From: Candidatus Absconditicoccus praedator
GTDB taxonomy: Bacteria; Patescibacteriota; Gracilibacteria; Absconditabacterales; Absconditicoccaceae
Assembly: GCF_021057185.1 (NCBI RefSeq)
Contig: NZ_CP054059.1
Location: 90,001-122,000, forward strand
DNA length: 32,000 bases
Direction: 5' to 3'
Under the pieces are notes generated by a model, which was not told the origin of the DNA, searched no databases, and worked only from the letters and a program-made list of their open reading frames with translations. The translations under genes and the position numbers were made by a program. How positions within the stretch are numbered: the stretch's first letter is position 1; every line of letters begins with the position of its first letter. Shown in pieces: positions 3,159 through 31,701 of this stretch.

Positions 3159-3545
3159 ATGAAAAACCAAAAAAACAATGTTGTTCGTTGGACTGTATGG
3201 GTTATTACAATTGTGTTTATAACTATTGCGGGAGTGTTCTTTTTAGATTTTCTATCTTTCTTTGATAGACTATTTATGACTTACTTTGATCAACACCTTG
3301 CTGAATCTAAACTTGCAACACTCATCGTCGCATTATTATGTCTTGCAATAGCTATTGCCATAGCTGCGGTGTCTGGTTTTATACTGGACAAAACCCAAGC
3401 TGACCACAAAGAAATTGACTTTAAAAACAATAGTGATGGAAGCATAACTATTAGAACTGGCAGCAAATACATTACTGCTGAAACTGGTGAAGATGGAAGC
3501 ATCACCCTTAGAACTGATAATGGCCCAGTACTTAAGGGTATCTAA
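3159..3545 (+). CDS. Small membrane protein (128 aa, about 2 TM segments) with tandem DGSIT(I/L)RT motifs; SD-led, TGA-free cassette ORF
   Basis: GGAGG at 3148-3152 sits 6 nt before the ATG at 3159 (MKNQKNNVVRW...). Hydrophobic stretches are VWVITIVFITIAGVFFL and LATLIVALLCLAIAIAIAAVSGFIL. The C-terminus has NSDGSITIRTG...EDGSITLRTD. 8 Gly, all GGN. TAA stop. GC is visibly above the backbone. Confidence 0.7.
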   Translation: MKNQKNNVVRWTVWVITIVFITIAGVFFLDFLSFFDRLFMTYFDQHLAESKLATLIVALLCLAIAIAIAAVSGFILDKTQADHKEIDFKNNSDGSITIRTGSKYITAETGEDGSITLRTDNGPVLKGI

Positions 3546-7541: not shown

Positions 7542-8429
7542 TGTAAGAAAAGGTAGCGTTGTTAAAAAATTATCAGTAATAGAACTTTTCAATAACTTCA
7601 TAAGGAGTTTTATTATCTAGTCATTTATGTGGCTTTACAGTGTTATATCGATTTACAAATCTTTTTAAAGACATTTTTCTATGTTCTGATGACTTAAAAA
7701 CTTCCTTACTGTGCCACATATCGATTAATGTTCTTATAACCCTCTCTGCTTTTCAATTTGTTCTTGGTGTTCTAACTTTTGTAAATTTTTGCTTTATTCA
7801 GCTTTTTACACACTCTTTAACAAATTCATGTTTATCATTTCATTTGTACTCAACTCAATTATCTGAGTACACACACTCAATAGTGTAAGGACATTCATCT
7901 ATTACCTGTCTAAGAAACATAGACGAAGATACTTGTGTCTTATCTTGCATTATAGCTACATAAAGTTCTCTAGAATAGTCGTCTATTCATACAAATAAGT
8001 ATTCAGACTTTTTGTTTGCTGCTCATCTTATAAGAGGTAGTTTTTTTGTGTCAAAATGCATCATTTCTCAAGGGTAGTTTTTATTGTATCTTCTAGCTTC
8101 TTTGTTTTTCTTTTCTATTATCTTAGATTCTATTTTAGCTAATCTAAGTAATCATCGCCTAATGTTTCTAAATCTATTATTGATAGAATTTCTTGGTAAA
8201 AACTCTTGAGTTCTTGCTCTCTTTATTATCTTGTATATGGTAGGCAATGATACATTGAACTTAATATGTAAATCCTTAGGCTTCATTCATCTTTTATAGT
8301 ATTCCCAGACCTCTTTTCTCTGGAGTGGTGTTAGTCTTGTATTTTTATGTATATTCATTACATAGTTTGTTATCAAATAAATAGTATTTTGTATACACAT
8401 TATTTTTAACAACGCTATATAATCTTACA
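7542..8429 (-). mobile_element. IS481-family insertion sequence (~888 bp)
   Basis: Imperfect terminal inverted repeats: left TGTAAGAaaaggTAGCGTTGTTAAAAAATTA (from 7542), and right, reverse-complemented, TGTAAGAttataTAGCGTTGTTAAAAATAAT (ending 8429). It has TG...CA ends and a single DDE transposase ORF. A possible 4-bp AATA duplication is too low-complexity to trust. Confidence 0.8.
7570..8358 (-). CDS. DDE transposase, IS481 family (262 aa)
   Basis: MNIHKNTRLTPLQRKEVWEYY...LPTIYKIIKRAR (HTH); NYPGEMMHFDTKKL (D); CVYSDNGVEYKG (D); RTPRTNGKAERVIRTL (E). All 11 Gly codons I count are TGA. Ends ...YYG (TGA) TAA. Confidence 0.85.
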
Positions 8430-8438
8430 AATAATTTT

Positions 8439-9320
8439 TTAATAACTTTCTAATGCTTTTATTCTATCTTCTATGCTTGGATGTGAATTTGTCCACCCAT
8501 TTTTAGATGATGGATTTTCTATATACATATGGTAAATACTTTTTTCTTCTAAACTTAATGAATTTTTTTCTTTTTGAATTTTTTTTAATGCAGATATCAT
8601 AGAATCTTTATCTTTGGTTAGTTCTACAGCTCAAGCATCAGCTAAAAACTCTCTACTTTTAGTTATGGCAAGCTGCACAAAAGGGAAAATTATATGGCCA
8701 ACTATCAATAAAACTGTTCATATAATGAAAAAATAAATCCCTCCTTTGTTCCCTGAACTATTATATCTCAAGCTTCTTATGATTGCTTCTCATAAGGTTT
8801 TGATAACTCATATAAAAAGAATAATTATCAAAATTAGTAAATTATCTTTATTCTTAATATGAGTTAATTCATGAGCTGCAACTGCTTGGATTTCTTTTTT
8901 TGTTAGGTTTTCTATTAGACCTCTAGTGAAGACTATCCAAGAATTTTTATCATTCCATCATATAGCAAATGCATTTAATTTATTATCTTCTATTATTCAA
9001 ATATTTGGTGTTTTGAGTCATCTTGAAATACATAAATTTTCTACTGTATTATATATAAAAGGTTCCTCTTTTCTTGTGACTTCATTAACTCAAGTGATAG
9101 AAAATATAAAATCTTTATGATAATAGAATGATACTGATCACAAAAATAATAGAACTGGTAACCATATAAGTAAATTTGTAAAAGCATGCAATATAGGGTC
9201 TGATACCACAAAAAAAAGAAGTAAATAAATTACTAAAAAAAGAATTATAGGGTATAATATGATCAAAAGAATTGTTTTGTAAGTATTTCTCCAGATACTG
9301 GTTTGTATTCAAACATACAT
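8439..9320 (-). CDS. htpX: M48-family zinc metalloprotease, HtpX-like (293 aa)
   Basis: The reverse frame from the ATG at 9320 has N-terminal TM helices (ILLIILYPIILFLVIYLLLFFVV, LLIWLPVLLFLG), NAFAIGWNDKNSWIVFTRGL, AVAAHELTHIKNKD (HExxH), REFLADAGAVELT and SHPSIEDRIKAL. The track ORF 9115..9312(-) is the +1 shadow of its N-terminus. Confidence 0.85.
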
Positions 9321-9521
9321 ATATTTGACTTTTTTGCTAAAAGTTAGTTGTAAATTATAAACTTTTTAAAATTTTTTTCAAATTTCTATAATTATTATTT
9401 ATGCTTACTGTTTATAGGTTTCAAATGTGTTTGTAAGAAACCTTAAATACATTTCCTGTATAATTTACTTTCTCTTGAAAAAGACAATTTTGTCATTAAT
9501 AAAAGGATGCAATCCATCAAT

Positions 9522-9684
9522 AGAGGAGGAGCAGAAATGTTCTGGCCGAACAATGATGGTTGAGCTCAGATACATGAGCAGTTAGAGGGAGTTCAATACA
9601 CTCAACAGAGGAGGAGTTGCCGTGTATCCTGATAATAAGGGGTAACACGGTCGCCGGGGTTAGAATCTAGCCCCGGCTTTTTTT
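9522..9684 (+). ncRNA. GC-rich structured transcript with two identical super-SD boxes, two mini-ORFs and a double-hairpin terminator (function unknown)
   Basis: AGAGGAGGAG occurs at 9522-9531 and again at 9607-9616. ATG at 9537 (MFWPNNDG then TGA at 9561) and GTG at 9622 (MYPDNKG then TAA at 9643). Hairpins: GCTCA..TGAGC, CCGTGT(9620)..ACACGG(9650), GCCGGGG(9653)..CCCCGGC(9677), followed by TTTTTTT. GC is far above the flanks. Confidence 0.4.
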
Positions 9685-9871
9685 ATTAAGTATACAATTG
9701 ATATCTTTTCAAAATATCAAAACATAAAACAAATTTTCTCAAAAATAAACTCAAACAAGATTTTTAACAATTTCAACAAAATAGTCAATTTTATAAATTT
9801 AGCTTGAAAAAACTTGTAAACTGTTTATCTTATATTATAATAAGCTAATTTTATACACTTTCACAACAAAG

Positions 9872-12220
9872 ATGCAATTTTCTGAAGCTGATACCAAAGC
9901 CAAATTCATAGACCCAAAACTCAAAGAATCAGCACGAGATGAAGCCAATATCATCAGAGAAGAATATTTTACCACTTGAAGAAAATTTGGAGCCAATACC
10001 AGATGAACTCCTGGATATGTAGACTATCTTCTCAAATACAAAAACAAAAACTTAGCAATAATAGAAGCCAAAAAATCTGAAGAATCTCCCACCAAATGAC
10101 TAGAACAAGCCAAAACCTACTGACAAAAACTTCAAGTAAGATTTGTATATTCTACCAACTGATACGAAATATACGAATTTGACCTAAAACTATGAAAATG
10201 AGATTTTGTAGATAGCTTTCCATCTCCAGAAGAATTATTCCAAAAAATTATTTGAAAAACCAACCATCTCAAAGAAAAGCTGTTAAGTACAGCCTACAGT
10301 ATAGAATGAAATGTCAAACCAAGATACTACCAAGAAAATGCTATCAACAAAGTACTTGAATCCATAGCAGACGGCAACCAAAGAATTCTTCTAACTCTTG
10401 CCACAGGTACCTGAAAAACATTTATAGCTTTTCAGATAGTTTGGAAACTGTTTCAAGCCAGATGGAACAACAAATCCAATTCACAAAGACCCAAAATCTT
10501 GTTTCTTGCAGACAGAAATATTTTGGTAGATCAAGCAATGAACACTTTCAATCCATTGGAAAAAGATATGATCAAGATTGACTGAAGCGAAATCAAAAGA
10601 AGATGATGAAAAGTACCTACCAATGCCAATATATTTTTTGCTATATATCAAGCAATCAGCGACAAAGAAAATATATGATGATACTACAAAGAATATCCTT
10701 CGGATTTTTTTGATTTGGTGATAATAGATGAATGTCATAGGTGATGAGCCAACGAAGAATGAACTTGGCATGAGATACTTCAGCATTTTTCTCCTGCTGT
10801 ACACCTGGGACTTACTGCCACTCCCAAAAGGCAGGACAATATAGATACTTATAATTATTTTGGTGAGCCTGTATATGAATACTCACTCAAAGAAGGGATC
10901 AACGATGGTTTCCTAACTCCCTACAAAGTCAAAAGAATCCAGACCAATCTAGATGAGTTTGTGCTAAATTCTGGAGACAAAATTTTGAAATGAGAATCTA
11001 CAAAATCTGTTTATGATATACAAGACCACGAAAGAAATATAATAATCCACGAAAGAACAGATCTAATAGCTCAAGCAATACTACAAAATATAAATCCTTA
11101 TGAAAAAACTATTGTTTTTTGTGTAGACCAAGATCATGCTCTAAGGCTCAGGGATGCTATCAACAAATACAAATCCAACAATGAAAAAGATTACTGTGTC
11201 AGAGTCACTTCTGATGAATGAGTAGAATGAAAACAATACTTAGAAAGATTCCAAGACAACGACAAAACTTTGCCTGTGATTTTGACTACTTCTCAGATGT
11301 TAACTACTGGAGTAGATGCCAAAAATGTCAGAAATATAGTTTTGCTGAAGCAAATAGGTTCTATGGTAGAATTCAAGCAGATAATATGAAGGTGAACCAG
11401 GCTTTTTGAGTGAAAAGATTATTTCAATATTATAGATTTTGTAGGAGCTACCAACAATTTTTATGATGAAGCCTGGGATGGTGAACCAGCTGCACCTGTC
11501 AAAAAATCCAAACTACAGCTTGGAGAAGATGAAGAGCAGTTAGAAGAAGTCTTGGAAGATTATCAAGAATCAGCAGAAAATCAAAATGAAAGTAATGATT
11601 ATGAGTTTTCTTCTCAGGATCAAGACCTGCCCAAAGAGAAGTTGGAAGTAGAGCTTGGAGACGACAGGACTGTCAAAATCATAAACATAGAAGAAAGATT
11701 TATTGATGAGAATTGAAAGCCACTAAGTGCAGAAGATTTTTTGCAAAAGATAGTGGGAAATATACCTCATCTATATCAAGATATAGATCAACTAAGGCAG
11801 GCTTGGGCTGATCCAGAAAGTAGAGAAGCTTTGTTACAAAAGCTTTATGATATGTGAATAGACAGAGAACAACTCCAAAATCTAAGGAAAATGTTTGAAG
11901 CTGATGGAGTGGATGTTTTTGATATATTGGCTTATATATCTTTCAATGTGGATATGAAAAAGAGGAAGGAAAGGGCTGATTATGTCAGGGAAAATACTGG
12001 TATATTGGAAAAGTATGAAAGTTCTAAGGCTAAGGAGTTTTTGGAATTTTTGTTAGAACAGTATGAAGCCAATGGTATTTTTGAGTTCAAAAGTCATAAT
12101 CTAAAAGCTATGATAGATTTGTATCATTCTACTCCTACGGAGTTGTCCAAGGCTTTTGGTGGGGCTGATAGGTTGAGAGAGGCTTATTTTGAGTTGCAGA
12201 AGGATATTTATGAATTGTAG
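9872..12220 (+). CDS. hsdR: Type I restriction enzyme R subunit (782 aa)
   Basis: MQFSEADTKAKFIDPKL (HsdR N-terminal nuclease region), LLTLATGTGKTFIAFQ (Walker A, with G encoded by TGA), DLVIIDECHRG (DEAH), HLGLTATP, TSQMLTTGVDAKNV, QIIGRGTR. The C-terminal EcoEI-R-like tail is track ORF 11891..12220. Confidence 0.92.
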
Positions 12221-12371
12221 AAAATTATTACTTTTTTAATAAGGTTGAACTCTATAAAATTAGGGATTTATTCTAGGAATTTAGTTTTGAGTGATTTTTA
12301 ATACAGTGAATTATTGACAGGAATTGAATGTTGATTACATATAGTATAATTTATTTTTTAAAATTAACAAT

Positions 12372-12878
12372 ATGTGAAATTATGCCTTTATAGACTGACA
12401 AAATCTATACTTATGAACAAGTAGTGAATGATGGAATTTTGATTTAGAAAAGCTTAGAACATATCTTAAGGATAAATACAAAGTTACCAAGGCTTATTAT
12501 TTTTTGTGATATGTACAGGATGAAAATAATTCACTTTATACTAAATTGCAAGAGTCGGGTTTTATAGTGGTATTTAAAAAACAGATGGTAAATATGACTA
12601 CTGCCAAAAAGTGAAATATAGATAGTGATATGATATTTTGGGTGATGCAAAAACTAATAGAAGAACCAGAAAAATTTGAGCAAATAGTAATAGTATCAGG
12701 AGATTGAGATTTCAAGATATTAGTTGATTACTTGATAAGAAAATGAAGGCTCAAAAAAATATTATTCCCAAATAAAAAATATGCTTCTTCTTTGTATAAT
12801 GATCTTTTGAATGAATATTTTGCTTATATGAAGGATATTAGACCCAAAATTGAGTATAAAAAAAGAGAAGGTACCTAA
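12372..12878 (+). CDS. NYN-domain (LabA/DUF88-like) putative ribonuclease (168 aa)
   Basis: MGNYAFIDGQNLYLG...KAYYFLGYV...GFIVVFK...KGNIDSDMIFWVM...IVIVSGDGDFKILVDYLIRKGRLKKILFP follows the NYN/LabA pattern (IDGxN...D...SGDGDF). 7 in-frame TGA. TAA at 12876-12878. Confidence 0.8.
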
Positions 12879-13008
12879 AGCACCAACACTTTTCGGATCC
12901 CTTCTCGTCTTGATACATTTATATTATAATCAGTTTTTTCAAAAATTCAAGTTTTTGATAAAAAAATTATTTACTTTGTTTCTGTGGTATGTTTGGATTA
13001 AGAAAAAA

Positions 13009-13035
13009 AGGTTTGAAATTTGCTTCAAACCTTTT
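13009..13035 (+). terminator. Intrinsic terminator-like hairpin downstream of the NYN gene
   Basis: AGGTTTGAA-atttgc-TTCAAACCT followed by TTT. A second GC-rich hairpin, CTCCATCGC-ttttg-GCGATGGGAG (13057-13080), follows. Confidence 0.55.
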
Positions 13036-13206
13036 ATATTATAGTTATTAATTTATCTCCATCGCTTTTGGCGATGGGAGGATCCCGGAGGACATTATGA
13101 ATATATGTTAATTAAAATTTTTTAGAATTCAAATAAATCTATGAAAAATAACATAATTAGATTCTAATATAGAAAGAGGTAATTTATTCTTATTATATTT
13201 TAAATA

Positions 13207-15177
13207 ATGCAATATAACTCTTTTAGGAAAATACTTAAATTAATTTTTTTACATCTTTTACCGTCAATTATATTTTATTATATTTGGAAAATTTTTGATT
13301 TTCTTAAAATTAAATTTAAACCTTATAAGGCAATTTTAAATAAATTATCTCTTTTTTTATTGTATGTTTTATTTACAACATTTTTAGCTTTATTGTCTAT
13401 TCTAATTTACAATAACTATATACTTTCAAATGAATTAGATATTATTAATTATCATGATTTATTGATACTACTATTTTTTTTTCTTTTATTCTTATTTTTA
13501 AGAAATGCTGAAACTATATTAGATTATACTCATAGTAAAATTAAAATAATTTCTTCTTTAATTTTATTTCTATTTTTATTTTTTAATATAGAGGAAATAT
13601 ATGCGATATGATTAGGTCAGTTTTTAACTGCAATTTTTTTTTACTGACTATTCTTTATTATAGTTTTTAATGTTTCTTGAGTAAAATCATATAATAATTG
13701 ATTATTAGTAAAATCATATAAGATAGAAAATAGAAGTTTTGATCAATTCTTTGATACATATTTAAATTTATTAAACGAAAAATGAAATTTTATAAATCCA
13801 ATTTTTGATGAACCAATATCAATTGATAATGATGATATATTTTGAATTAATGATATCGTCCAAAATTTATACAATATAATTTTGTGAATAGACTTCAACA
13901 ATCAAAAAGGTTCATATAGTATATGAATAGTAGGTGAATGGTGAAGCTGAAAAAGTAGTATTATAAATTATCTAAAAGATAAATATTTATTTTGATCACC
14001 AACAATTAAAACACTAGAATTTAATCCTTGGAATTATGAAAAGGATGACTTAATAAATAAGTTTTTCACTGAATTGTCTATTGTGCTTTGAAAATCAACC
14101 AATTTGAATAGTAGTATAAAAAAGTATTTAAAGGCATTGTGAGAATTACATAGTTCATTTAATGCTATTAATAGCTTGATTTCAAGCAAGTCTATTAATG
14201 AGATAAAAAAAGATTTGAATAATGAATTAAATAACTCATGAAAGAAAATTATTGTGATAATTGATGACTTAGATAGATGTGATCCATATGAAATTCTATT
14301 AATGCTAAATTTAATAAAAAACTTATGAGATCTGAAAAATATAATATATTTAGTTTCTTACGATAAAGGGAATATAACTAAAGTTCTTGATGATAAGGGG
14401 TTTGATTGAAATTATATAGAAAAGATTATAAATATAGAAAGGTTTGTTCCTGTTTTCACACAAGAACAAAAAAAGAAATATTTTAAAAATGAACTTAAAA
14501 ATATTCTTTGAAAATTATTTTTTAATAAAATTATTTTACCATTAAATTTTGATAAATGGTTTGAAAGTCTATATGTTCAAGATGTGTATATTTCTAAAAA
14601 GGCAAATGCTGAAATTAGAGAAAAATGGCAATTAGCTAAAAGAGAACCTTATTATTTTTTTAAGTATTTAGATGAATTTAATTCTATAGTTAATATTAAT
14701 TTACCTAAAACACTTTTAAACTATAAAAAATTATATTTAAATAAGCCTGAAAAAATAGTCAATACACTATTAAATGAGTTTGATAAAATGCTTGAAGTAG
14801 AAAATCTTAGATTTATAAAAAAATTATTAAATCAATTAAATATTGTTTTGCAGTTAAATTTGAGTAATAATACTAATATGATTCTTGATTTTCATGATGA
14901 AGATTATAAAAAAATTATTGCTATAAATTATTTTAAATTAAAAAATTATTCAAAATTTAACTATGTGATAGATAAATTTATACTAAAAGAAGTTTGAAAA
15001 TTAGTTGATGATAAAAAAATAAAAAGAATTAAAGATGATGATTTTCTTATCAATAAAGATATATATAATGAATATTTTTTAAACAATATATTAAATATTA
15101 GCAAAATGGATCAGTCTAATTTAAGATATACAACTATAAGTGATAAAGATTTTAAAATTATAAAAGAGTTTTCATAA
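13207..15177 (+). CDS. KAP-family P-loop NTPase with an N-terminal multi-TM domain (656 aa); Tmn-like
   Basis: About 5 hydrophobic helices in the first ~160 aa. Then IGIVGEWGSGKSSIINYL (Walker A, both invariant Gly encoded by TGA), LEFNPWNY and KKIIVIIDDLDRCDPYEILLMLNLIK (KAP Walker B). Joins track ORFs 13207..13611 and 14584..14997. Extremely AT-rich. TAA TAA stop. Confidence 0.85.
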
Positions 15178-15223
15178 TAATAAAAAGTAATTATACATTT
15201 ACTATAAATAACCTACAAACCCA

Positions 15224-16390
15224 ATGCAAAACCTACCTGAATGATGGGAAATAAAAAAACTTTGAGATATAGCAACTTTTACAAATTGATTTGCATTTAA
15301 AAGTAGCTTATTTAAGGATGAATGAAAACCAATTTTAAGAATAGCTAATATAAAAGAGAACTGAATTTCTTTTAAAAATCTTGTATATTTTAATGATGAA
15401 GATTATTCACAAGATTTGTCGAATTATAAAGTTTTTCCTTGAGATTTAGTAATAGCAATGTCTTGAGCTACTACTGGGAAACTTACTATAAACAACACAG
15501 ATAAAACCTTTTATTTAAATCAAAGAGTTTGAAAAATTTGATTTGATAATGAAATTACTAAACAATACATTTATTCTTTTTTAAAAACTAAAATAGAATA
15601 CAATCTTAATCGTTCATCTTGATCAGCCATACCCAATTTAAGTACACAACAAATAAAAAATACTGAAATCCCACTCCCACCTCTCGAAACTCAAAAGCAA
15701 ATAGCAGCCAAACTTGATGAAGTGCTGGGAGATATTGACCAGTCTATCCAACTAATCCAACAAAACATAGCCCACATAGATGAAATGAGCAAATCTGTCT
15801 TGAATCAAGTTTTTGAAGAAAAATGGGAAATAAAAAAACTTTGAGATATAGTAAATTTTTCTCAATGACTTCAAGTTCCTATAAAAGAACAAAAATATGA
15901 TTGAAATTATAGATTTTTAAGAATAATTGATTTTACACAATGAAATCAGGAACCTAGGTTTATAGAGAAATATGATGAGAGAGCTTTTGTAAAAGAAACA
16001 GATATTTCTATGGTTAGATATTGAGCATCTACTTGATTTATATGTACTTGAAAAAAATGAATTATAGCAAATAATTTATTTAAGATTACTGCAACTATAG
16101 ATAGTCTTAATAAAAAATATTTGTATTTTTATTTTTTATCAGATTTTTTTAAAAATTACCTTTTTCTAAATGTATATTGAGCAGCAATGCCAGCTATTAA
16201 ATTTTCAACTATTAGCGAATTAGATATCCCACTTCCACCTCTATCCAAACAACAAGAAATAGTTGATTATCTAGACAATATTTTCCAAACCAACGAACAA
16301 CTCAAAAATCAATACCAACAAAAACTTGCCAATCTACAAGAACTCAAAAAATCTGTCCTAAACTCTGCTTTTGAAGGGAAACTGGTTTAA
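15224..16390 (+). CDS. hsdS: Type I R-M specificity subunit with two target-recognition domains (388 aa)
   Basis: LPEGWEIKKLGDIATFTNGFAFKS (TRD1 start) and EEKWEIKKLGDIVNFSQG (TRD2 start). Conserved helices IPLPPLETQKQIAAKLDEVL and IPLPPLSKQQEIVDYLDNIF. C-terminus SVLNSAFEGKLV. Confidence 0.9.
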
Positions 16391-16412
16391 TTATAAGTTT
16401 GATGAAAATTCA

Positions 16413-16985
16413 ATGAGCAAATCTATCAAAAAAGCTGTTTATCTAATATTCTTGGCTATATTTATACTTCTTTTATATTTGGTATACACAATCTGACCTG
16501 CTCAAATTGTTGATTTTATCTGACTAGAAAATACATACCTTGTAATTTTCTTTTTTGCTTTTGTATGATGAGTATTTTTCCTAACTGCAGCTACATTTTA
16601 TACAACATTAGCAACTTTTGTTGTATGATGAGCAGATTTGCTTACTTTGTCGCTAATATCAGCAATATGACTAACAATTGGTGATTTCTTCTTTTATTTT
16701 TTGGGGAGGAAAGCAAAATTATTTATAAATGATAGCAAATACAAATCAAAAGTTGAAAAATTTTCCAACTGGATAAGAGCCAAATCTGATAAAACAATTT
16801 TTTGGTTTTTGCTGCTTTATTGGAGTTTTGCCCCATTGCCAAATGATATACCATCATCATGATTATGAATTGCTTGATACAACTGGAAAAAAATGATACT
16901 TCCAATTTTTGTGTGAAATATTAATTATAATTTGCTGATATGAAGCCTGGCAATGTTTGGATACAGTATATATTGAGTACTCTAA
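16413..16985 (+). CDS. DedA/SNARE-associated (VTT-domain) family membrane protein (190 aa)
   Basis: Polytopic hydrophobic protein with the diagnostic LTIGDFFFYFLGRK motif and ...FAPLPNDIPSSGLGIAGY. 14 or more in-frame TGA. Confidence 0.7.
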
Positions 16986-17016
16986 AAGGTCTTTACAGGT
17001 AATTTAATGGGGTGTC

Positions 17017-17200
17017 CCCCTTCAAACATCCAACGAATGTTTAAGGGGATCCCTTCAAATCCCTAAGTTACCGCGCGGAGTTGAAGGTATGGACCACCCC
17101 TAAATTATCGCGCGGAGTTGAGGGTGTGCGGCATCCCTAAGTTATCGCGCGAAGTTTGAGGTATGCTGCATCCTTCAAATATTCAATGAACATTTGAGGG
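17017..17200. repeat. GC-rich repeat element: three tandem 37-bp units flanked by two homologous hairpins
   Basis: Units are 17061-17097, 17098-17134 and 17135-17171 (CCCTAAGTTACCGCGCGGAGTTGAAGGTATGGACCAC and variants). The left hairpin is CCTTCAAACAT..ATGTTTAAGG (17017-17048). The right hairpin is CCTTCAAAT..ATTTGAGGG (17172-17200). A truncated unit (CCTAAATTA) follows. Confidence 0.8.
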
Positions 17201-17234
17201 AGCTACCTAAATTAATAAAAACATAATCATAAAG

Positions 17235-17302
17235 ATTTCCAACCCACATATTAATATTGAAAAAAATATCCAAAGATATATTATATCAAATAAGTTTAGC
17301 TT
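17235..17302 (+). repeat. Copy 1 of a duplicated ~68-bp promoter-like segment (upstream of the 17317 gene)
   Basis: ATTTCCAACCCACATATTAATATTGAAAAAAATATCCAAAGATATATTATATCAAATAAGTTTAGCTT is near-identical to 18222-18290 and contains TTGAAA-N17-TATATT. Confidence 0.75.
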
Positions 17303-17316
17303 GTCATAACAAAGAA

Positions 17317-17886
17317 ATGACAAAAAAAGATAAATTGGCTATATATCAAAATGATAATTGAGAAATAAAAGTTAATTTTGATGAAAATCAAGAAACTTTT
17401 TTATGACTTGATAGTACTTGATGGACATCCCTGAGTGCCATAGCTATATTTTTATCTGTATTAGCATCTTTATTTATTTCTATTTGTTTAGAACCACTAA
17501 AAAATAGTTTTAAGAAAAAAAGGATTTTAAAAGTCTTAGAAAGTAACTTAGACAAAAATATTGAAATTTTGAAAAAAATAAAAGAATTTGATTTGTATGA
17601 AATTACTAGAAATCAAAAAGAAGAAGAACAAGAAAAATTAAAGAAATTTGTTTATAGTATAAACTTTGAATCTTGGGAATTAAATAAAAGTTTTTTATCT
17701 ATAACAAGCCCACAGGAATTTGATAAATATAATAATATACATATTAAATTAAGTAATATAAAAAATGAATTTTGTGAACTAGAAAACATCAATAGATATT
17801 GGTATACTAAAAATGTTGAAAAGATAATAAGTAAGTTTAATTATACTAAAAATAATATAAAAAAGTTCTTAGAGGAATACGAATAA
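17317..17886 (+). CDS. Hypothetical membrane-anchored coiled-coil protein (189 aa)
   Basis: MTKKDKLAIYQNDNGEIKVNFDENQETFLGLD..., one TM segment (LSAIAIFLSVLASLFISICL), then a Lys/Glu-rich helical region. Extends track ORF 17569..17886 upstream through 3 TGA codons. Confidence 0.55.
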
Positions 17887-18221
17887 ATACAATGCTATAC
17901 TATATTTATTTAAAAAATTTGAATAGGTATATTTCTAACTTTTAAATCATTATTAATATCTTCTAATTCAATTAGTTCCAAAATGACACTAGTTTAAAAA
18001 AAGCAATGTGCAAAAAATGCACATACCACTAAATTGAGCCTGGTTAATAAAATCAGCAAAACTATTTCCAAACAAACTCAAACTTAGAAACAGTTTGTAA
18101 TAGTAAGTAGATTTCAAAATCTTTAAACTTGTCACGATTTACAAAACAACATTGTCCGTGACAAAAGCTAATATAAGTTTTGAATTGATTTTTCTAAAAA
18201 ATATCAAATTGGACCGTGACA

Positions 18222-18290
18222 ATTTCCAAACCCCAATATTAATATTGAAAAAAAAATCCAAAGATATATTATATCAAATAAGTTTAGTTT
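18222..18290 (+). repeat. Copy 2 of the duplicated promoter-like segment (upstream of hsdM)
   Basis: ATTTCCAAACCCCAATATTAATATTGAAAAAAAAATCCAAAGATATATTATATCAAATAAGTTTAGTTT. See 17235-17302. Confidence 0.75.
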
Positions 18291-18380
18291 ATAAAAAATC
18301 ACTTATTTCATATTTTGCAACAACTGTCATTTGTACTATAAATCATTATGTTAAACCAATTTACCAAATAATCATACCCA

Positions 18381-19826
18381 ATGCAACAACAAATAAACAG
18401 AATTACAGATATTCTCCGTAGAGACGACTGAATCTCTTGAGCTATGCACTATACAGAACAAATATCCTGGATTCTTTTTCTGAAATTTATAGATGATTAT
18501 GAAAAAGAAAATTATGAATGAGCCTTGCTTGATGGCAAAGATTATGAATTTATACTAGACCCAAAGTTTAGACGAGATAATCGAGCCTGTCCCAAGACCA
18601 AAGACCACAAACTTGATGTGAACAATGCTCTTACCTGAGATGATCTCAAAGATTTCGTAAACAATGAGCTTTTCCCTTATCTTCAATCTTTCAAAGATAC
18701 CAGTAAAGATTACAATACTATGAAATACAAAATAGGTGAAATCTACTATTTCATAGACAACAGGATAGAAAGCTGACACACTATCAGAGAGATTTTGGAT
18801 ATAGTAGACTGACTCAGTTTTCAAAGCGAAAAAGATCTTTTTGAGCTTAGTAAAATATATGAAGACTTGCTTCAGTGAATGGGTAGCGATGGTTGAAATT
18901 CAGGTGAGTTTTATACTCCAAGACCTGTAATAAAAGCTATGACAGATACTATCAACCCCAAGATTGGGCAAACTATTTATGATGGAGCCAGTGGTAGTTG
19001 TTGATTTTTGATAGAAGCTTTTGAAAACCTAAAAAAACAAGAAAAAACAACTGATGACTACTATTTCCTAAGGAATAAAACCTTTTATGGAAACGAAAAG
19101 ACACCAATAGCTTATATTATGGGTATGATGAATATGATACTTCATTGAATTTCCAACCCAAACCTAAGCAAGCAAAACAGCCTCACCCAAGATGTAAGAT
19201 CTATTGAAGAAAAAGACAGATACGATATTATCCTTGCCAATCCACCTTTTGGATGAAAAGAAAAGGAACAAATTCAAGCTAATTTCCCTATCAAAACCAA
19301 CTCTACTGAAATGCTATTTCTCCAACATTTTATGAAAAAACTCAAAACTTGATGAAAAGCTGCTATAATTGTCCCAGAATGAGTTTTGTTTAATACCTCA
19401 CAACCTTTCCAAAAAATTAAACAAGAACTTATAGAAAATTATAATCTACATACTATTTGTAGTTTGCCTGCAGGAGTGTTTTTGCCTTATTCTGGAGTAA
19501 AAACAAATATTATATATTTTGACAAACAGTGAACTACCAAGGATATACGATATTATGAAATAAATCCTTGAAGAAATCTTACCAAGAATTCCCCTTTGAA
19601 ATACGAAGAAATCCAAGAATTTATAGATCTTTTTGATAGCAGGAAAGAAACAGAAAATTCATGGATAGCTCCAGTAGAAGATATCAAAGACTATGATATA
19701 TCAGCCAAAAATCCTCACAAAAATAAACCAGAAGAATACAGAACTCCTCAAGAAATACTAGAAAATATTGAAAATAATGACCAAAAAATCAATGAATTAA
19801 CCAATAGACTAAAAGAAGCTATCTAA
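18381..19826 (+). CDS. hsdM: Type I R-M DNA methyltransferase subunit (N6-adenine), 481 aa
   Basis: ITDILRRDDGISGAMHYTEQISWILFLKF (HsdM N-terminus), GEFYTPRPV, IYDGASGSCGFL (AdoMet motif I), ILANPPFGGKE (motif IV), STEMLFLQHFM, AAIIVPEGVLF. Confidence 0.92.
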
Positions 19827-31365: not shown

Positions 31366-31410
31366 TTTTTTGATATTTGACAAAATAAAAAAGATGGTTA
31401 TAAATAGTAT

Positions 31411-31435
31411 GCTGGTAGTTTTGCCAGCGTTTTTT
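31411..31435 (+). terminator. Terminator-like hairpin after topA
   Basis: GCTGG-tagttttg-CCAGC followed by gTTTTTT, ~45 nt after the topA TAA. It is overlapped upstream by TTGACA(31377)-N16-TATAAA. Confidence 0.55.
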
Positions 31436-31451
31436 ATAAAAAGGAGAATAT

Positions 31452-31655
31452 ATGCACAAAGTCCAGACTGTCCAGACTGAACGGGCTGCAAACTCTATCA
31501 TTACTGGCAGAGAGGTTATGAGACTCCAAAGCGAAGATGACTTTTGGAGACTTGTAGATGAACGTAGGGGAAATGAGGATGTAATTCCTCTCAGCCCCTT
31601 AGCTATAGAGTGTGCGGCCAAGAAGGGATGGTTGAAGACACCTGAGGTGTTATAA
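31452..31655 (+). CDS. Small hypothetical soluble protein (67 aa); SD-led, TGA-free, GC-elevated cassette ORF
   Basis: AAGGAG sits 6 nt before the ATG at 31452. MHKVQTVQTERAANSIITGREVMRLQSEDDFWRLVDERRGNEDVIPLSPLAIECAAKKGWLKTPEVL. TAA stop, then a double-hairpin terminator. Confidence 0.55.
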   Translation: MHKVQTVQTERAANSIITGREVMRLQSEDDFWRLVDERRGNEDVIPLSPLAIECAAKKGWLKTPEVL

Positions 31656-31701
31656 CACTTCAGGTATCCACCTTGGAGTTTACTCCAAGGTGGTCTTTTT
31701 T
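31639..31701 (+). terminator. Double-hairpin intrinsic terminator
   Basis: ACACCTGAGGTG-ttataa-CACTTCAGGT, then CCACCTTGGAG-ttta-CTCCAAGGTGG (11 bp perfect), followed by TCTTTTTT. Confidence 0.75.

What the first reader, a model, noticed from the sequence alone, without database searches (positions are those of the whole stretch)
9470..9690. GC-rich structured locus with duplicated AGAGGAGGAG boxes, twin mini-ORFs and a UGA-dependent reading choice, upstream of hsdR
This ~165-nt GC-rich island sits in AT-rich intergenic DNA.
- Two identical 10-nt super-SD boxes lie 85 nt apart.
- Each box is followed 5 nt later by a start codon.
- Under the standard code they give similar peptides, MFWPNNDG (stop TGA at 9561) and MYPDNKG (stop TAA at 9643).
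- Under code 25 the first ORF reads through its TGA for 32 codons and stops at TGA-TAA (9630-9635). This lies inside hairpin CCGTGT/ACACGG (9620-9650), just before the terminator GCCGGGG/CCCCGGC-T7 (9653-9684).
The locus could be a novel sRNA, a pair of micropeptide genes, or a leader/attenuator ~190 nt upstream of hsdR. In the attenuator case, the outcome would depend on whether UGA is decoded or terminated, which would make it a possible sensor of perturbed UGA decoding. That last idea is speculative.
Basis: partly seen in the sequence, partly recalled or inferred. Interest (0 to 1): 0.65.

Follow-up and report, generated by a model that had tools for sequence, protein, structure and literature searches.

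The report
Orphan structured small-RNA candidate upstream of hsdR
A 180-base GC-rich, strongly folded, terminator-ended island between htpX and hsdR of the predatory bacterium Candidatus Absconditicoccus praedator is most likely a lineage-specific small RNA gene (or a relic of imported DNA); it is not a UGA-sensing switch for the restriction enzyme, and no relative could be found to show that it is functional.

Summary
The window comes from Ca. Absconditicoccus praedator (29% GC, UGA = Gly). The island at 9505-9686 (47% GC) has four predicted hairpins, a 39-nt open linker and the strongest intrinsic terminator in the left half of the window. It contains a 15-nt direct repeat, TCAAYAGAGGAGGAG, twice (0 of 1000 shuffles reach this).

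The functional readings hold up less well.
- SD boxes: 16 of 17 native genes here lack a Shine-Dalgarno sequence. Published Absconditabacteria 16S ends lack CCUCC, so the boxes are unlikely to be ribosome-binding sites.
- Mini-ORFs: their similarity is at chance level (p about 0.16). Their codon usage is non-native, they have no homologue, and they are not annotated.
- Attenuator: no antiterminator exists. hsdR has its own promoter-like site 187 nt downstream, and the closest hsdR homologues lack the element.

Rfam, ARAGORN, phage and plasmid BLAST, pattern scans and a covariance model found no relative.

Best reading: an orphan sRNA gene (confidence about 0.4). Main rival: a relic of the standard-code-style GC-rich cassettes scattered in this window (about 0.28). 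Interest is modest.

The parts
9365..9392 (+). Best-scoring promoter-like site upstream of the island (TTTAAA-16-TATAAT, 10 of 12). It would give a transcript of about 287 nt.
   Evidence: A consensus match only; promoter-like sites are no more frequent in this AT-rich DNA than in shuffles.
9457..9464 (+). Extended -10-like TGTATAAT. It would put the 5' end near 9471, giving an RNA of about 215 nt.
   Evidence: Read directly from the sequence. No -35 element. Inferred.
9475..9502 (+). Weaker TTGAAA ... TAATAA promoter-like pair. It would put the 5' end near 9508, giving an RNA of about 178 nt.
   Evidence: Read from the sequence. Below the scanner's threshold.
9510..9562 (+). Hairpin P1 (CAA.CCAUCA / UGAUGGUUG) with an inner hairpin P1b at 9525-9547, capped by a GAAA tetraloop. 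The 3' half of box 1 pairs with the ORF1 AUG region.
   Evidence: MFE and centroid structures. Pairing probabilities.
9517..9531 (+). Repeat copy 1, TCAATAGAGGAGGAG (box 1 = 9522-9531). Six of the 10 box bases are paired in the MFE; mean unpaired probability 0.40.
9564..9579 (+). Hairpin P2 (GCUCA-GAUACA-UGAGC).
9580..9618 (+). 39-nt largely single-stranded purine-rich linker. It carries AGAGGGAG and repeat copy 2, TCAACAGAGGAGGAG (9602-9616; box 2 = 9607-9616, mean unpaired probability 0.62). This is the candidate interaction site.
   Evidence: Unpaired in the centroid. Accessibility.
9619..9651 (+). Hairpin P3 (12-bp interrupted stem, loop GAUAAUAA). It contains the GUG of mini-ORF2 and the stop codons of both ORFs.
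9653..9684 (+). Intrinsic terminator: 11-bp stem with 8 G-C pairs, 3-nt loop, T7 tail; -20.1 kcal/mol.
   Evidence: It is one of the five strongest terminator-like sites in the window.
9537..9635 (+). ORF1: 8 codons under the standard code, 32 under code 25, and extendable to ATG 9507 (42 codons). Judged non-coding.
   Evidence: Codon score -0.37; no homologue; not annotated.
9622..9645 (+). Mini-ORF2 (GTG start, 7 codons, TAA stop). Judged fortuitous.
   Evidence: Similarity to ORF1 is not above chance.
9450..9504 (.). Left arm of an imperfect AT-rich inverted repeat that brackets the GC island. The right arm is about 9681-9735; the core is 9485-9504 / 9681-9700, 16 of 20 complementary.
   Evidence: 31 of 2000 shuffles and 0.5% of equally spaced window positions score as high. 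Meaning unclear.
9681..9735 (.). Right arm of the flanking inverted repeat.
9814..9841 (+). hsdR's own promoter-like site (TTGTAA-16-TATAAT), 30 nt upstream of the hsdR ATG at 9872. Not part of the element, but it argues that hsdR is transcribed separately.

Best explanation
The island is an independently transcribed, lineage-specific (orphan) small non-coding RNA gene of Ca. Absconditicoccus praedator. It lies on the + strand and is roughly 180-290 nt long, depending on which upstream promoter-like site is used. It ends at the strong intrinsic terminator at 9653-9684.

The RNA folds into three hairpins (P1, P2, P3) plus the terminator. Between P2 and P3 it leaves a 39-nt purine-rich linker open. 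Its two identical 15-nt boxes (UCAAYAGAGGAGGAG) are not ribosome-binding sites in this SD-less organism. One box is half-buried in P1 and the other is exposed in the linker.

I infer that the boxes are twin recognition sites. Through them the RNA would bind a partner, in one of two ways:
- as a decoy for an RNA-binding factor that recognises GGA/GGAGG motifs, or
- as a seed that pairs with pyrimidine-rich (CUCCUCC) stretches in target RNAs.

Shown: composition, fold, terminator, repeat, lack of coding signal, and lack of linkage to hsdR. Inferred: that it is transcribed, the position of its 5' end, and the whole mode of action. Given that it is an sRNA, I put decoy and base-pairing at roughly 40% each.
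For: - GC island of 47% in intergenic DNA of 19-25% GC, in a genome under strong AT pressure.
- Strand-specific predicted structure. The body without the terminator has z = -3.1 to -3.6 on the + strand and -1.1 on the - strand. Only 3.7% of 160 same-size windows across the 32 kb reach -3.1, and most of those contain terminators. No CDS window of the GC-rich cassettes goes below -2.6.
- Canonical terminator on the same strand.
- Promoter-like sites upstream on the same strand.
- 15-nt direct repeat beyond chance (0 of 1000), found nowhere else in the window.
- No coding signal: non-native codon usage, no homologue of the 42-aa code-25 ORF, and only one marginal low-complexity match for the 52-aa table-11 ORF (E 7e-4). 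No CDS is annotated there.
- It lies between divergently transcribed genes that each have their own promoter-like site.
Against: - No relative was found anywhere, so there is no conservation or covariation support.
- The rest of the 1.13-Mb genome could not be read. It is absent from genome contigs and from the contig index.
- No expression data are available.
- The promoter assignment is ambiguous, and promoter-like hexamers are as common as in shuffles in this AT-rich DNA.
- The island shares its style (GGAGG motifs, GC-rich stem terminator, higher GC) with several standard-code-type ORF cassettes in the window. It could therefore be a degraded piece of imported DNA rather than a selected RNA gene.
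- No partner for the boxes is known.
Confidence: 0.4

Rival explanations
1. Relic of imported DNA. The island is a short, possibly decaying leftover of the class of GC-richer, standard-code-style expression cassettes present elsewhere in this window. Its SD boxes, start codons, standard-code stops and GC-rich terminator are inherited from an SD-using, standard-code donor. They have no selected role in the predator.
For: The window holds at least six ORFs that differ from native genes. They are 128 aa (3159-3545), 118 aa (20357-20713), 164 aa (21050-21511), a full-length 59% GC dapD (21625-22467, minus strand), 106 aa (22790-23110, minus strand) and 67 aa (31452-31655).
- None has an in-frame TGA, whereas 71% of Gly codons are TGA in native genes.
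- All have higher GC than native genes.
- Four have a GGAGG- or AAGGAG-type SD.
- Three end in TGA.

The five strongest intrinsic terminators in the window are those of four of these cassettes and of the element. ORF1 ends at TGA if read in the standard code.
Against: - A decayed CDS does not explain a 15-nt exact-type duplication.
- It does not explain a body more structured than any window of the cassette CDSs.
- The strong AT pressure of this genome should erase an unselected 47% GC piece unless it arrived very recently.
- No donor sequence was found in phages, plasmids or the pattern scans.
Confidence: 0.28
2. Small-protein mRNA. ORF1 would encode 32 aa under code 25 (42 aa from ATG 9507), and/or the two 7-8-codon mini-ORFs would be translated.
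For: The open frames exist with start codons. ATG 9507 has the A-rich upstream context typical of native starts.
Against: - Codon score is -0.37 per codon, below even out-of-frame native sequence.
- The AUG of ORF1 and the GUG of ORF2 are both inside stems.
- No homologue was found, and none in Pfam or PHROGs.
- It is not annotated.
- SD boxes are not used by this lineage.
- The similarity of the mini-ORFs is at chance level.
Confidence: 0.1
3. MITE-like or other small mobile insertion. The GC-rich core, bracketed by imperfect terminal inverted repeats, was inserted into the htpX-hsdR spacer. This is a variable region next to an IS481-like transposase and a type I restriction-modification island.
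For: - Flanking inverted repeat, core 16 of 20, extendable to about 55 nt. 31 of 2000 shuffles and 0.5% of window positions score as high.
- The IS481-like transposase at 7570-8400 is present in at least four identical copies in the genome.
Against: - Only one copy in 32 kb.
- No target-site duplication is visible.
- The arms are AT-rich DNA in which such matches arise fairly easily.
- The arms contain promoter-like sequence, which could explain their similarity.
Confidence: 0.08
4. DNA-level element. The two 15-bp direct repeats, 85 bp apart (about eight helical turns), would be binding sites for a DNA-binding protein that controls the divergent htpX and hsdR promoters.
For: Exact-type direct repeats on the same face of the helix, located in a divergent intergenic region.
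Against: - It does not explain the strand-specific RNA fold or the canonical terminator.
- The repeats lie more than 140 bp from htpX's predicted promoter and about 200 bp from hsdR's.
Confidence: 0.05
5. Leader or attenuator of hsdR, whose outcome depends on whether UGA in ORF1 is decoded.
For: Same strand as hsdR. A leader-like ORF ends 18 nt before the terminator stem.
Against: - No alternative structure competes with the terminator. It stays intact while masked segments stop short of the stem, and competitor pairings are -9 to -10 against -20.1 kcal/mol.
- 187 nt and a separate promoter-like site lie between the terminator and hsdR.
- The element is absent upstream of the closest hsdR homologues, which share the operon layout.
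- ORF1 is unlikely to be translated.
Confidence: 0.04

Closest known systems
Free-standing bacterial trans-acting sRNA genes ending in an intrinsic terminator (generic class; Spot 42, RF00021, was the nearest Rfam model)
   Same: Own promoter-like site. Size of about 180-290 nt. 5' hairpins, a single-stranded segment, then a GC-rich terminator with a U tail. Located between divergent genes.
   Different: The Spot 42 match scores only 18 bits against a gathering score of 80, and it rests on the terminator hairpin alone. No sequence family, no known chaperone, no known targets, and no homologue.
CsrB/RsmZ-type protein-sequestering sRNAs
   Same: Several GGA-containing purine motifs: AAGGAUG at the 5' end, two GGAGGAG boxes and GGGAG. 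Some are exposed. Identical binding-site-like boxes are repeated, and the RNA ends in a terminator.
   Different: No Rfam hit to any Csr/Rsm family. Only about six GGA motifs, and only one box is clearly exposed. The presence of a CsrA-like protein in this genome could not be checked.
Leader-peptide transcription attenuators (trpL/hisL type)
   Same: A short ORF followed by a hairpin and an intrinsic terminator, on the same strand as a downstream gene.
   Different: No antiterminator alternative. 187 nt and a promoter-like site precede the gene. No informative run of regulatory codons. The organism lacks SD-led initiation. Not conserved upstream of hsdR homologues.
MITEs such as Neisseria Correia elements (from my own knowledge of that family)
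   Same: Small (about 230 bp with the arms), bracketed by inverted repeats, and carries promoter- and terminator-like signals.
   Different: Single copy in the window, no target-site duplication, weak AT-rich arms.

Membership tests
Any Rfam 15 family | Covariance-model score at or above the family's gathering threshold | tested here: not met
   No hit at gathering thresholds over the whole window. At E up to 10 on 9300-9900, only noise: Spot_42 at 18.2 bits against 80, and STnc540 at 11.9 against 38. At E up to 1 over the whole window, nothing in the element.
tRNA / tmRNA | Cloverleaf or tmRNA architecture detected by ARAGORN | tested here: not met
   No gene found in the window.
Leader-peptide attenuator | An antiterminator structure mutually exclusive with the terminator | tested here: not met
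   The terminator (-20.1 kcal/mol) persists in five of six masked folds. It changed only when the mask (9625-9655) covered the first three bases of its own stem. The best upstream competitors for either arm are -9.0 and -10.2 kcal/mol.
Leader-peptide attenuator | Terminator directly precedes the regulated gene, with no intervening promoter | tested here: not met
   187 nt of spacer containing TTGTAA-16-TATAAT at 9814-9841.
Leader-peptide attenuator | Translated leader ORF | tested here: inconclusive
   The ORF exists, but its start is buried in P1b, its codon usage is non-native, and SD is not used in this lineage. Translation itself was not measured.
Leader-peptide attenuator | Conserved upstream of orthologous genes | tested here: not met
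   hsdR homologues at 61% identity (L254-L257) have only the upstream gene's terminator and an AT-rich spacer. The covariance model finds nothing there.
CsrB/RsmZ-type sponge RNA | Multiple GGA motifs presented in loops or single-stranded segments | tested here: inconclusive
   About six GGA motifs. Mean unpaired probability is 0.62 for box 2, 0.40 for box 1 and 0.65 for the 5' GGAUG. This is few compared with known members.
CsrB/RsmZ-type sponge RNA | Cognate CsrA/RsmA protein encoded in the genome | not testable with these tools
   Only 32 kb of the genome is readable. The genome is not in the contig collections.
Type I toxin mRNA | Small hydrophobic or membrane-active ORF | tested here: not met
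   ORF1 (MFWPNNDGGAQIHEQLEGVQYTQQRRSCRVSG) is polar, with no hydrophobic stretch.
MITE | Terminal inverted repeats | tested here: inconclusive
   Imperfect arms with alignment score 18; p about 0.015 by shuffling, and 0.5% of window positions score as high.
MITE | Multiple dispersed copies with target-site duplications | tested here: inconclusive
   Single copy in the 32 kb and no duplication at the ends. The rest of the genome could not be searched.
6S RNA | Rod-like fold with paired 5' and 3' ends and a central bubble, and an Rfam 6S model hit | tested here: not met
   The fold is a string of separate hairpins. No 6S hit even at E up to 10.
Protein-coding gene with homologues | Detectable homologue, or codon usage like the host's | tested here: not met

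The most novel reading that the evidence does not exclude
Published relatives of this organism have 16S rRNA ends that lack the anti-SD, and almost none of its genes carry an SD. An RNA that displays two perfect SD boxes, each followed by a start codon and a standard-code stop, would be 'legible' only to the ribosomes of its gammaproteobacterial prey.

The window also holds other ORF cassettes that are TGA-free, carry an SD and in three cases end in TGA, including an intact dapD. Together with these, the island could belong to a set of predator-encoded sequences made to act on, or be decoded by, prey ribosomes. An example would be a 30S decoy delivered during epibiotic feeding.

Nothing here tests transfer. 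The predator's own 16S 3' end was not available.
Probability: 0.03. Interest if true: 0.9.

Novelty: new member of a known kind. Interest (0 to 1): 0.3.

Why it matters
Almost nothing is known about regulatory RNAs in Absconditabacteria, or in the Candidate Phyla Radiation generally. Ca. A. praedator is one of the very few cultured members, so a discrete abundant sRNA there could be tested directly.

The more general point is compositional. In an SD-less, UGA = Gly genome, GGAGG boxes, GC-rich terminators and TGA-free ORFs mark a minority class of sequences, and their origin and expression are worth explaining.

On present evidence the island itself is an unvalidated single-genome candidate. 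The attractive 'UGA-decoding sensor' idea does not hold.

Tried and rejected
- **Known RNA families.** Rfam at gathering and E-value thresholds, and ARAGORN: nothing.
- **Phage and plasmid BLAST.** blastn of the element against phages and plasmids gave nothing beyond a 47-nt chance match.
- **Two-box pattern scans.**
  - The loose pattern gives more than 120 chance hits in viral contigs, mostly Glu-rich coding repeats.
  - Stricter versions gave 0 viral hits and 3 unrelated hits in genome contigs. The organism's own genome is not in that collection.
  - blastn and the covariance model found no homologue among all 244 loci. The two weak model hits are a tandem repeat and noise.
- **Single box plus start codon, and exact terminator, in viral contigs.** Three ordinary ribosome-binding sites and nothing, respectively.
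- **Synteny.**
  - htpX homologues (57% identity or less) sit behind lemA and have no such element.
  - hsdR homologues (61%) have none either.
- **Same-organism Logan contig.** L121 is 100% identical, so it gives no variation.
- **More of the genome.** Attempts through HtpX, the multi-copy transposase and the table-11 hsdR fragment all failed: not on record.
- **Coding tests.** Codon score, exact look-ups, a word-indexed search of the 42-aa ORF, a full phmmer search of the 52-aa table-11 ORF, Pfam and PHROGs were all negative. The 32-aa ORF was too short to search.
- **Target search.** Searching the window for sequences complementary to the linker found only its own antisense.
- **Replication origin.** There are no DnaA boxes in the spacer.
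- **TIGR-Tas reading of the nearby 37-nt array.** No Nop-domain protein is nearby.

Full report
**Source and genetic code**

The HtpX-like protein encoded at 8439-9320 (minus strand) is 100% identical to an M48 metallopeptidase of Candidatus Absconditicoccus praedator. That protein comes from a single 1,129,696-bp record. A. praedator is a cultured epibiotic predator of the Candidate Phyla Radiation (PMC12428579).

The window is 29% GC. Under table 11 it breaks into short ORFs. With TGA read as a sense codon it gives long genes. TGA falls at conserved glycines, for example the hsdR Walker A motif LATGT-G-KT and KAP GEW-G-S-G-KS. TGA supplies 71% of the Gly codons in native genes. Code 25 is therefore correct.

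The gene order around the finding is:
- IS481-like transposase (7570-8400, minus strand)
- htpX (8439-9320, minus strand)
- a 551-nt spacer
- hsdR (9872-12220, plus strand), then NYN, KAP NTPase, hsdS, DedA, an unknown gene and hsdM

**The observation**

- The repeat is longer than stated: 15 nt, TCAAYAGAGGAGGAG, at 9517-9531 and 9602-9616. No dinucleotide-preserving shuffle of the island gives a repeat that long (0 of 1000). The 10-mer occurs nowhere else in the 32 kb.
- The island is 47% GC, against 19-25% in its flanks.
- The + strand folds at -66 kcal/mol (z = -5.3). The - strand reaches only z = -2.95.
- Without the terminator, the + strand still reaches z = -3.1 to -3.6, against -1.1 for the - strand.
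- Only 3.7% of same-size windows across the 32 kb do as well, and most of those contain terminators.

One part of the observation does not hold. Downstream of the boxes the two 'twin' mini-ORFs are no more alike than shuffled sequence (320 of 2000).

**Anatomy**

| Part | Coordinates | Notes |
|---|---|---|
| P1 | 9510-9562 | Inner GAAA-capped hairpin pairs the 3' half of box 1 with the ORF1 AUG |
| P2 | 9564-9579 | Simple hairpin |
| Linker | 9580-9618 | Mostly unpaired, purine-rich; carries AGAGGGAG and box 2 (unpaired probability 0.62, against 0.40 for box 1) |
| P3 | 9619-9651 | Holds the GUG of mini-ORF2 and both stop codons |
| Terminator | 9653-9677 plus T7 | -20.1 kcal/mol |

Three promoter-like sites lie upstream on the same strand: TTTAAA-16-TATAAT at 9365-9392, an extended -10 TGTATAAT at 9457-9464, and a weaker TTGAAA/TAATAA pair at 9475-9502. 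None is decisive in DNA this AT-rich.

An imperfect AT-rich inverted repeat brackets the island. Its core is 16 of 20 complementary and its score has p of about 0.015.

**Are the boxes ribosome-binding sites?**

Probably not in this organism.
- Of 17 native genes in the window, 16 have no SD-like motif in the 30 nt before the start. Their upstream regions are simply A/T-rich.
[quoted passage not shown] They have 2% and 7% SD genes, and their 16S 3' ends read GACCACCACCCTAAA and AATCACCTTTGTACA (PMC10783764).

The 16S rRNA of A. praedator itself is not in the window. This step is therefore an inference from relatives plus the window's own genes.

**Is it coding?**

- ORF1 is 32 codons under code 25, or 42 from ATG 9507. 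It scores -0.37 per codon on the window's own codon table. Native genes score 0.5-0.84, and even their wrong frames score higher than ORF1.
- Both start codons are inside stems.
- No protein in the 5.8-billion-sequence collection shares three 5-residue words with the 42-aa product.
- The only table-11 ORF across the island (52 aa) has one marginal, low-complexity match in 1.84 billion representatives.
- Pfam and PHROGs are empty.
- GenBank numbers HtpX and HsdR consecutively (UFX82618, UFX82619), so no CDS is annotated between them.

**Is it a leader of hsdR?**

- The terminator stays intact in constrained folds that mask upstream segments, as a ribosome would. It changed only when the mask reached into its own stem.
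- The best upstream competitor for either arm is half as stable as the terminator.
- hsdR lies 187 nt further on and has its own TTGTAA-16-TATAAT site.
- The closest hsdR homologues (61% identity) sit in AT-rich recoded genomes with the same layout, hsdR - insert - hsdS - insert - hsdM. Upstream they have only the preceding gene's terminator and an AT-rich spacer.

The UGA-sensing attenuator idea is therefore not supported.

**Relatives**

None was found.
- Rfam and ARAGORN are negative.
- Phage and plasmid blastn are negative.
- Pattern scans of the viral, genome and metagenome collections returned only chance matches, checked by blastn and by a covariance model built from the island.

Two limits apply. 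The organism's own genome is in neither the genome collection nor the contig index, so paralogues elsewhere in its 1.13 Mb could not be sought.

The nearest HtpX relatives in any database are at most 57% identical. This species therefore has no close sequenced relative in which a fast-evolving sRNA could be recognised. A Logan assembly of the same organism is identical across the spacer.

**Context that bears on the interpretation**

The island is not the only oddity in composition. At least six ORFs in the window differ from native genes:
- 128 aa at 3159-3545
- 118 aa at 20357-20713
- 164 aa at 21050-21511
- a full-length 59% GC dapD at 21625-22467 (minus strand)
- 106 aa at 22790-23110 (minus strand)
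- 67 aa at 31452-31655

None contains an in-frame TGA, and all are GC-richer than native genes. Four carry GGAGG- or AAGGAG-type SDs, and three end in TGA.

The five strongest intrinsic terminators in the window belong to four of these cassettes and to the island. Standard-code-compatible mobile elements associated with code-25 hosts have been reported (PMC10746230).

The island therefore shares a 'style' with sequences that look imported. That is the basis of the main rival, a relic of such a cassette.

Three points count against that rival:
- The 15-nt duplication.
- A body more structured than any window of the cassette coding regions, whose lowest z is -2.6.
- The persistence of 47% GC under strong AT pressure.

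**Verdict**

The most likely reading (about 0.4) is an orphan small RNA gene ended by a terminator. Its exposed purine-rich twin boxes would serve as binding sites for a protein or for pyrimidine-rich RNA. That mechanism is inferred, not shown.

| Rival | Confidence |
|---|---|
| Relic of imported DNA | about 0.28 |
| Small-protein mRNA | 0.10 |
| MITE-like insertion | 0.08 |
| DNA-level twin operator | 0.05 |
| hsdR attenuator | 0.04 |

It is a new, unvalidated member of a familiar kind, so interest is modest. The speculative reading that remains open is that SD-bearing, standard-code-legible sequences in an SD-less, recoded predator are aimed at prey ribosomes. It would matter, but nothing here supports it directly.

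Noticed in passing
window 20300-23200: A cluster of four ORFs that read as intact genes under the standard code, with no in-frame TGA, in a genome where 71% of Gly codons are TGA. They are 118 aa (TGA stop), 164 aa (GGAGGT SD, TGA stop), a full-length proteobacterial-type dapD (280 aa, 59% GC, GGAGGT SD, TGA stop, E 1e-125 to solved DapD structures) and 106 aa. Each is followed by a GC-rich intrinsic terminator. The cluster looks like recently imported standard-code DNA. In this host the TGA stops would be read through.
   Followed up: partly
window 31380-31700: A compact unannotated cassette: TTGACA-type promoter, a terminator-like hairpin in the leader (31409-31430), an AAAGGAG SD, a 67-aa ORF (31452-31655, 47% GC, no TGA) and a strong terminator (31668-31693). 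The product is not in the protein collection and has no Pfam, PHROG or viral relative.
   Followed up: partly
window 3159-3545: An annotated hypothetical membrane protein (128 aa, WP_231178341.1). It has a GGAGGT SD 7 nt before the ATG, 36% GC, and 0 of 8 Gly codons as TGA. It is the only SD-bearing gene among those first listed.
   Followed up: partly
window 17017-17205: A GC-rich (47%) array of about five tandem stem-loops with a 37-nt period (consensus ATCCCTAAGTTATCGCGCGGAGTTTGAGGTATGCAGC, 3.1 copies by TRF). It is flanked by two related hairpins and lies between DedA and an unknown 189-aa gene inside the hsd operon. It superficially resembles the stem-loop guide arrays of TIGR-Tas systems, but no Nop-domain protein is nearby and the units vary little.
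   Followed up: partly
window, all strong terminators (9653, 21530, 21608 minus strand, 22776 minus strand, 31668): The five strongest intrinsic-terminator-like sites (at least 10 bp with at least 5 G-C pairs) all belong to the GC-rich, SD-bearing cassettes or to the element. None of the strongest sites follows a native gene such as hsdR, thrS or topA.
   Followed up: partly
window 7570-8400 (minus strand): An IS481-like (rve-domain) transposase whose 262-aa product carries at least four GenBank accessions in this genome. It is therefore a multi-copy IS, here sitting next to htpX.
   Followed up: partly
window 9872-19826: The type I restriction-modification operon (EcoAI/FtnUII-family hsdR) is interrupted by NYN, KAP P-loop NTPase, DedA and an unknown gene. 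The order is hsdR - NYN - KAP - hsdS - DedA - array - 189 aa - hsdM. The closest hsdR homologues (L254, L257) show the same pattern with different inserts (Fic, AAA ATPase, AbiEii).
   Followed up: partly
window 13058-13110: A hairpin (CTCCATCGC...GCGATGGGAG) followed by two GGAGGA motifs 10 nt apart and a 4-codon ATG mini-ORF. It lies in the NYN-KAP spacer and is another isolated SD-like motif in this SD-poor genome.
   Followed up: no
window 9300-11200: Gene orientation switches from mostly minus to mostly plus at the htpX-hsdR spacer, and cumulative GC skew has its minimum nearby (about 11 kb). No DnaA-box match lies in the spacer, so this probably reflects gene strand rather than an origin.
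   Followed up: partly
L254 5975-6000 and L257 452-477: The two closest hsdR homologues share an almost identical 5' leader (TTTTTTTTATGTTGCCAAACAAAC-ATG), although the proteins are only moderately similar to the window's hsdR. The window's hsdR does not have this leader.
   Followed up: no
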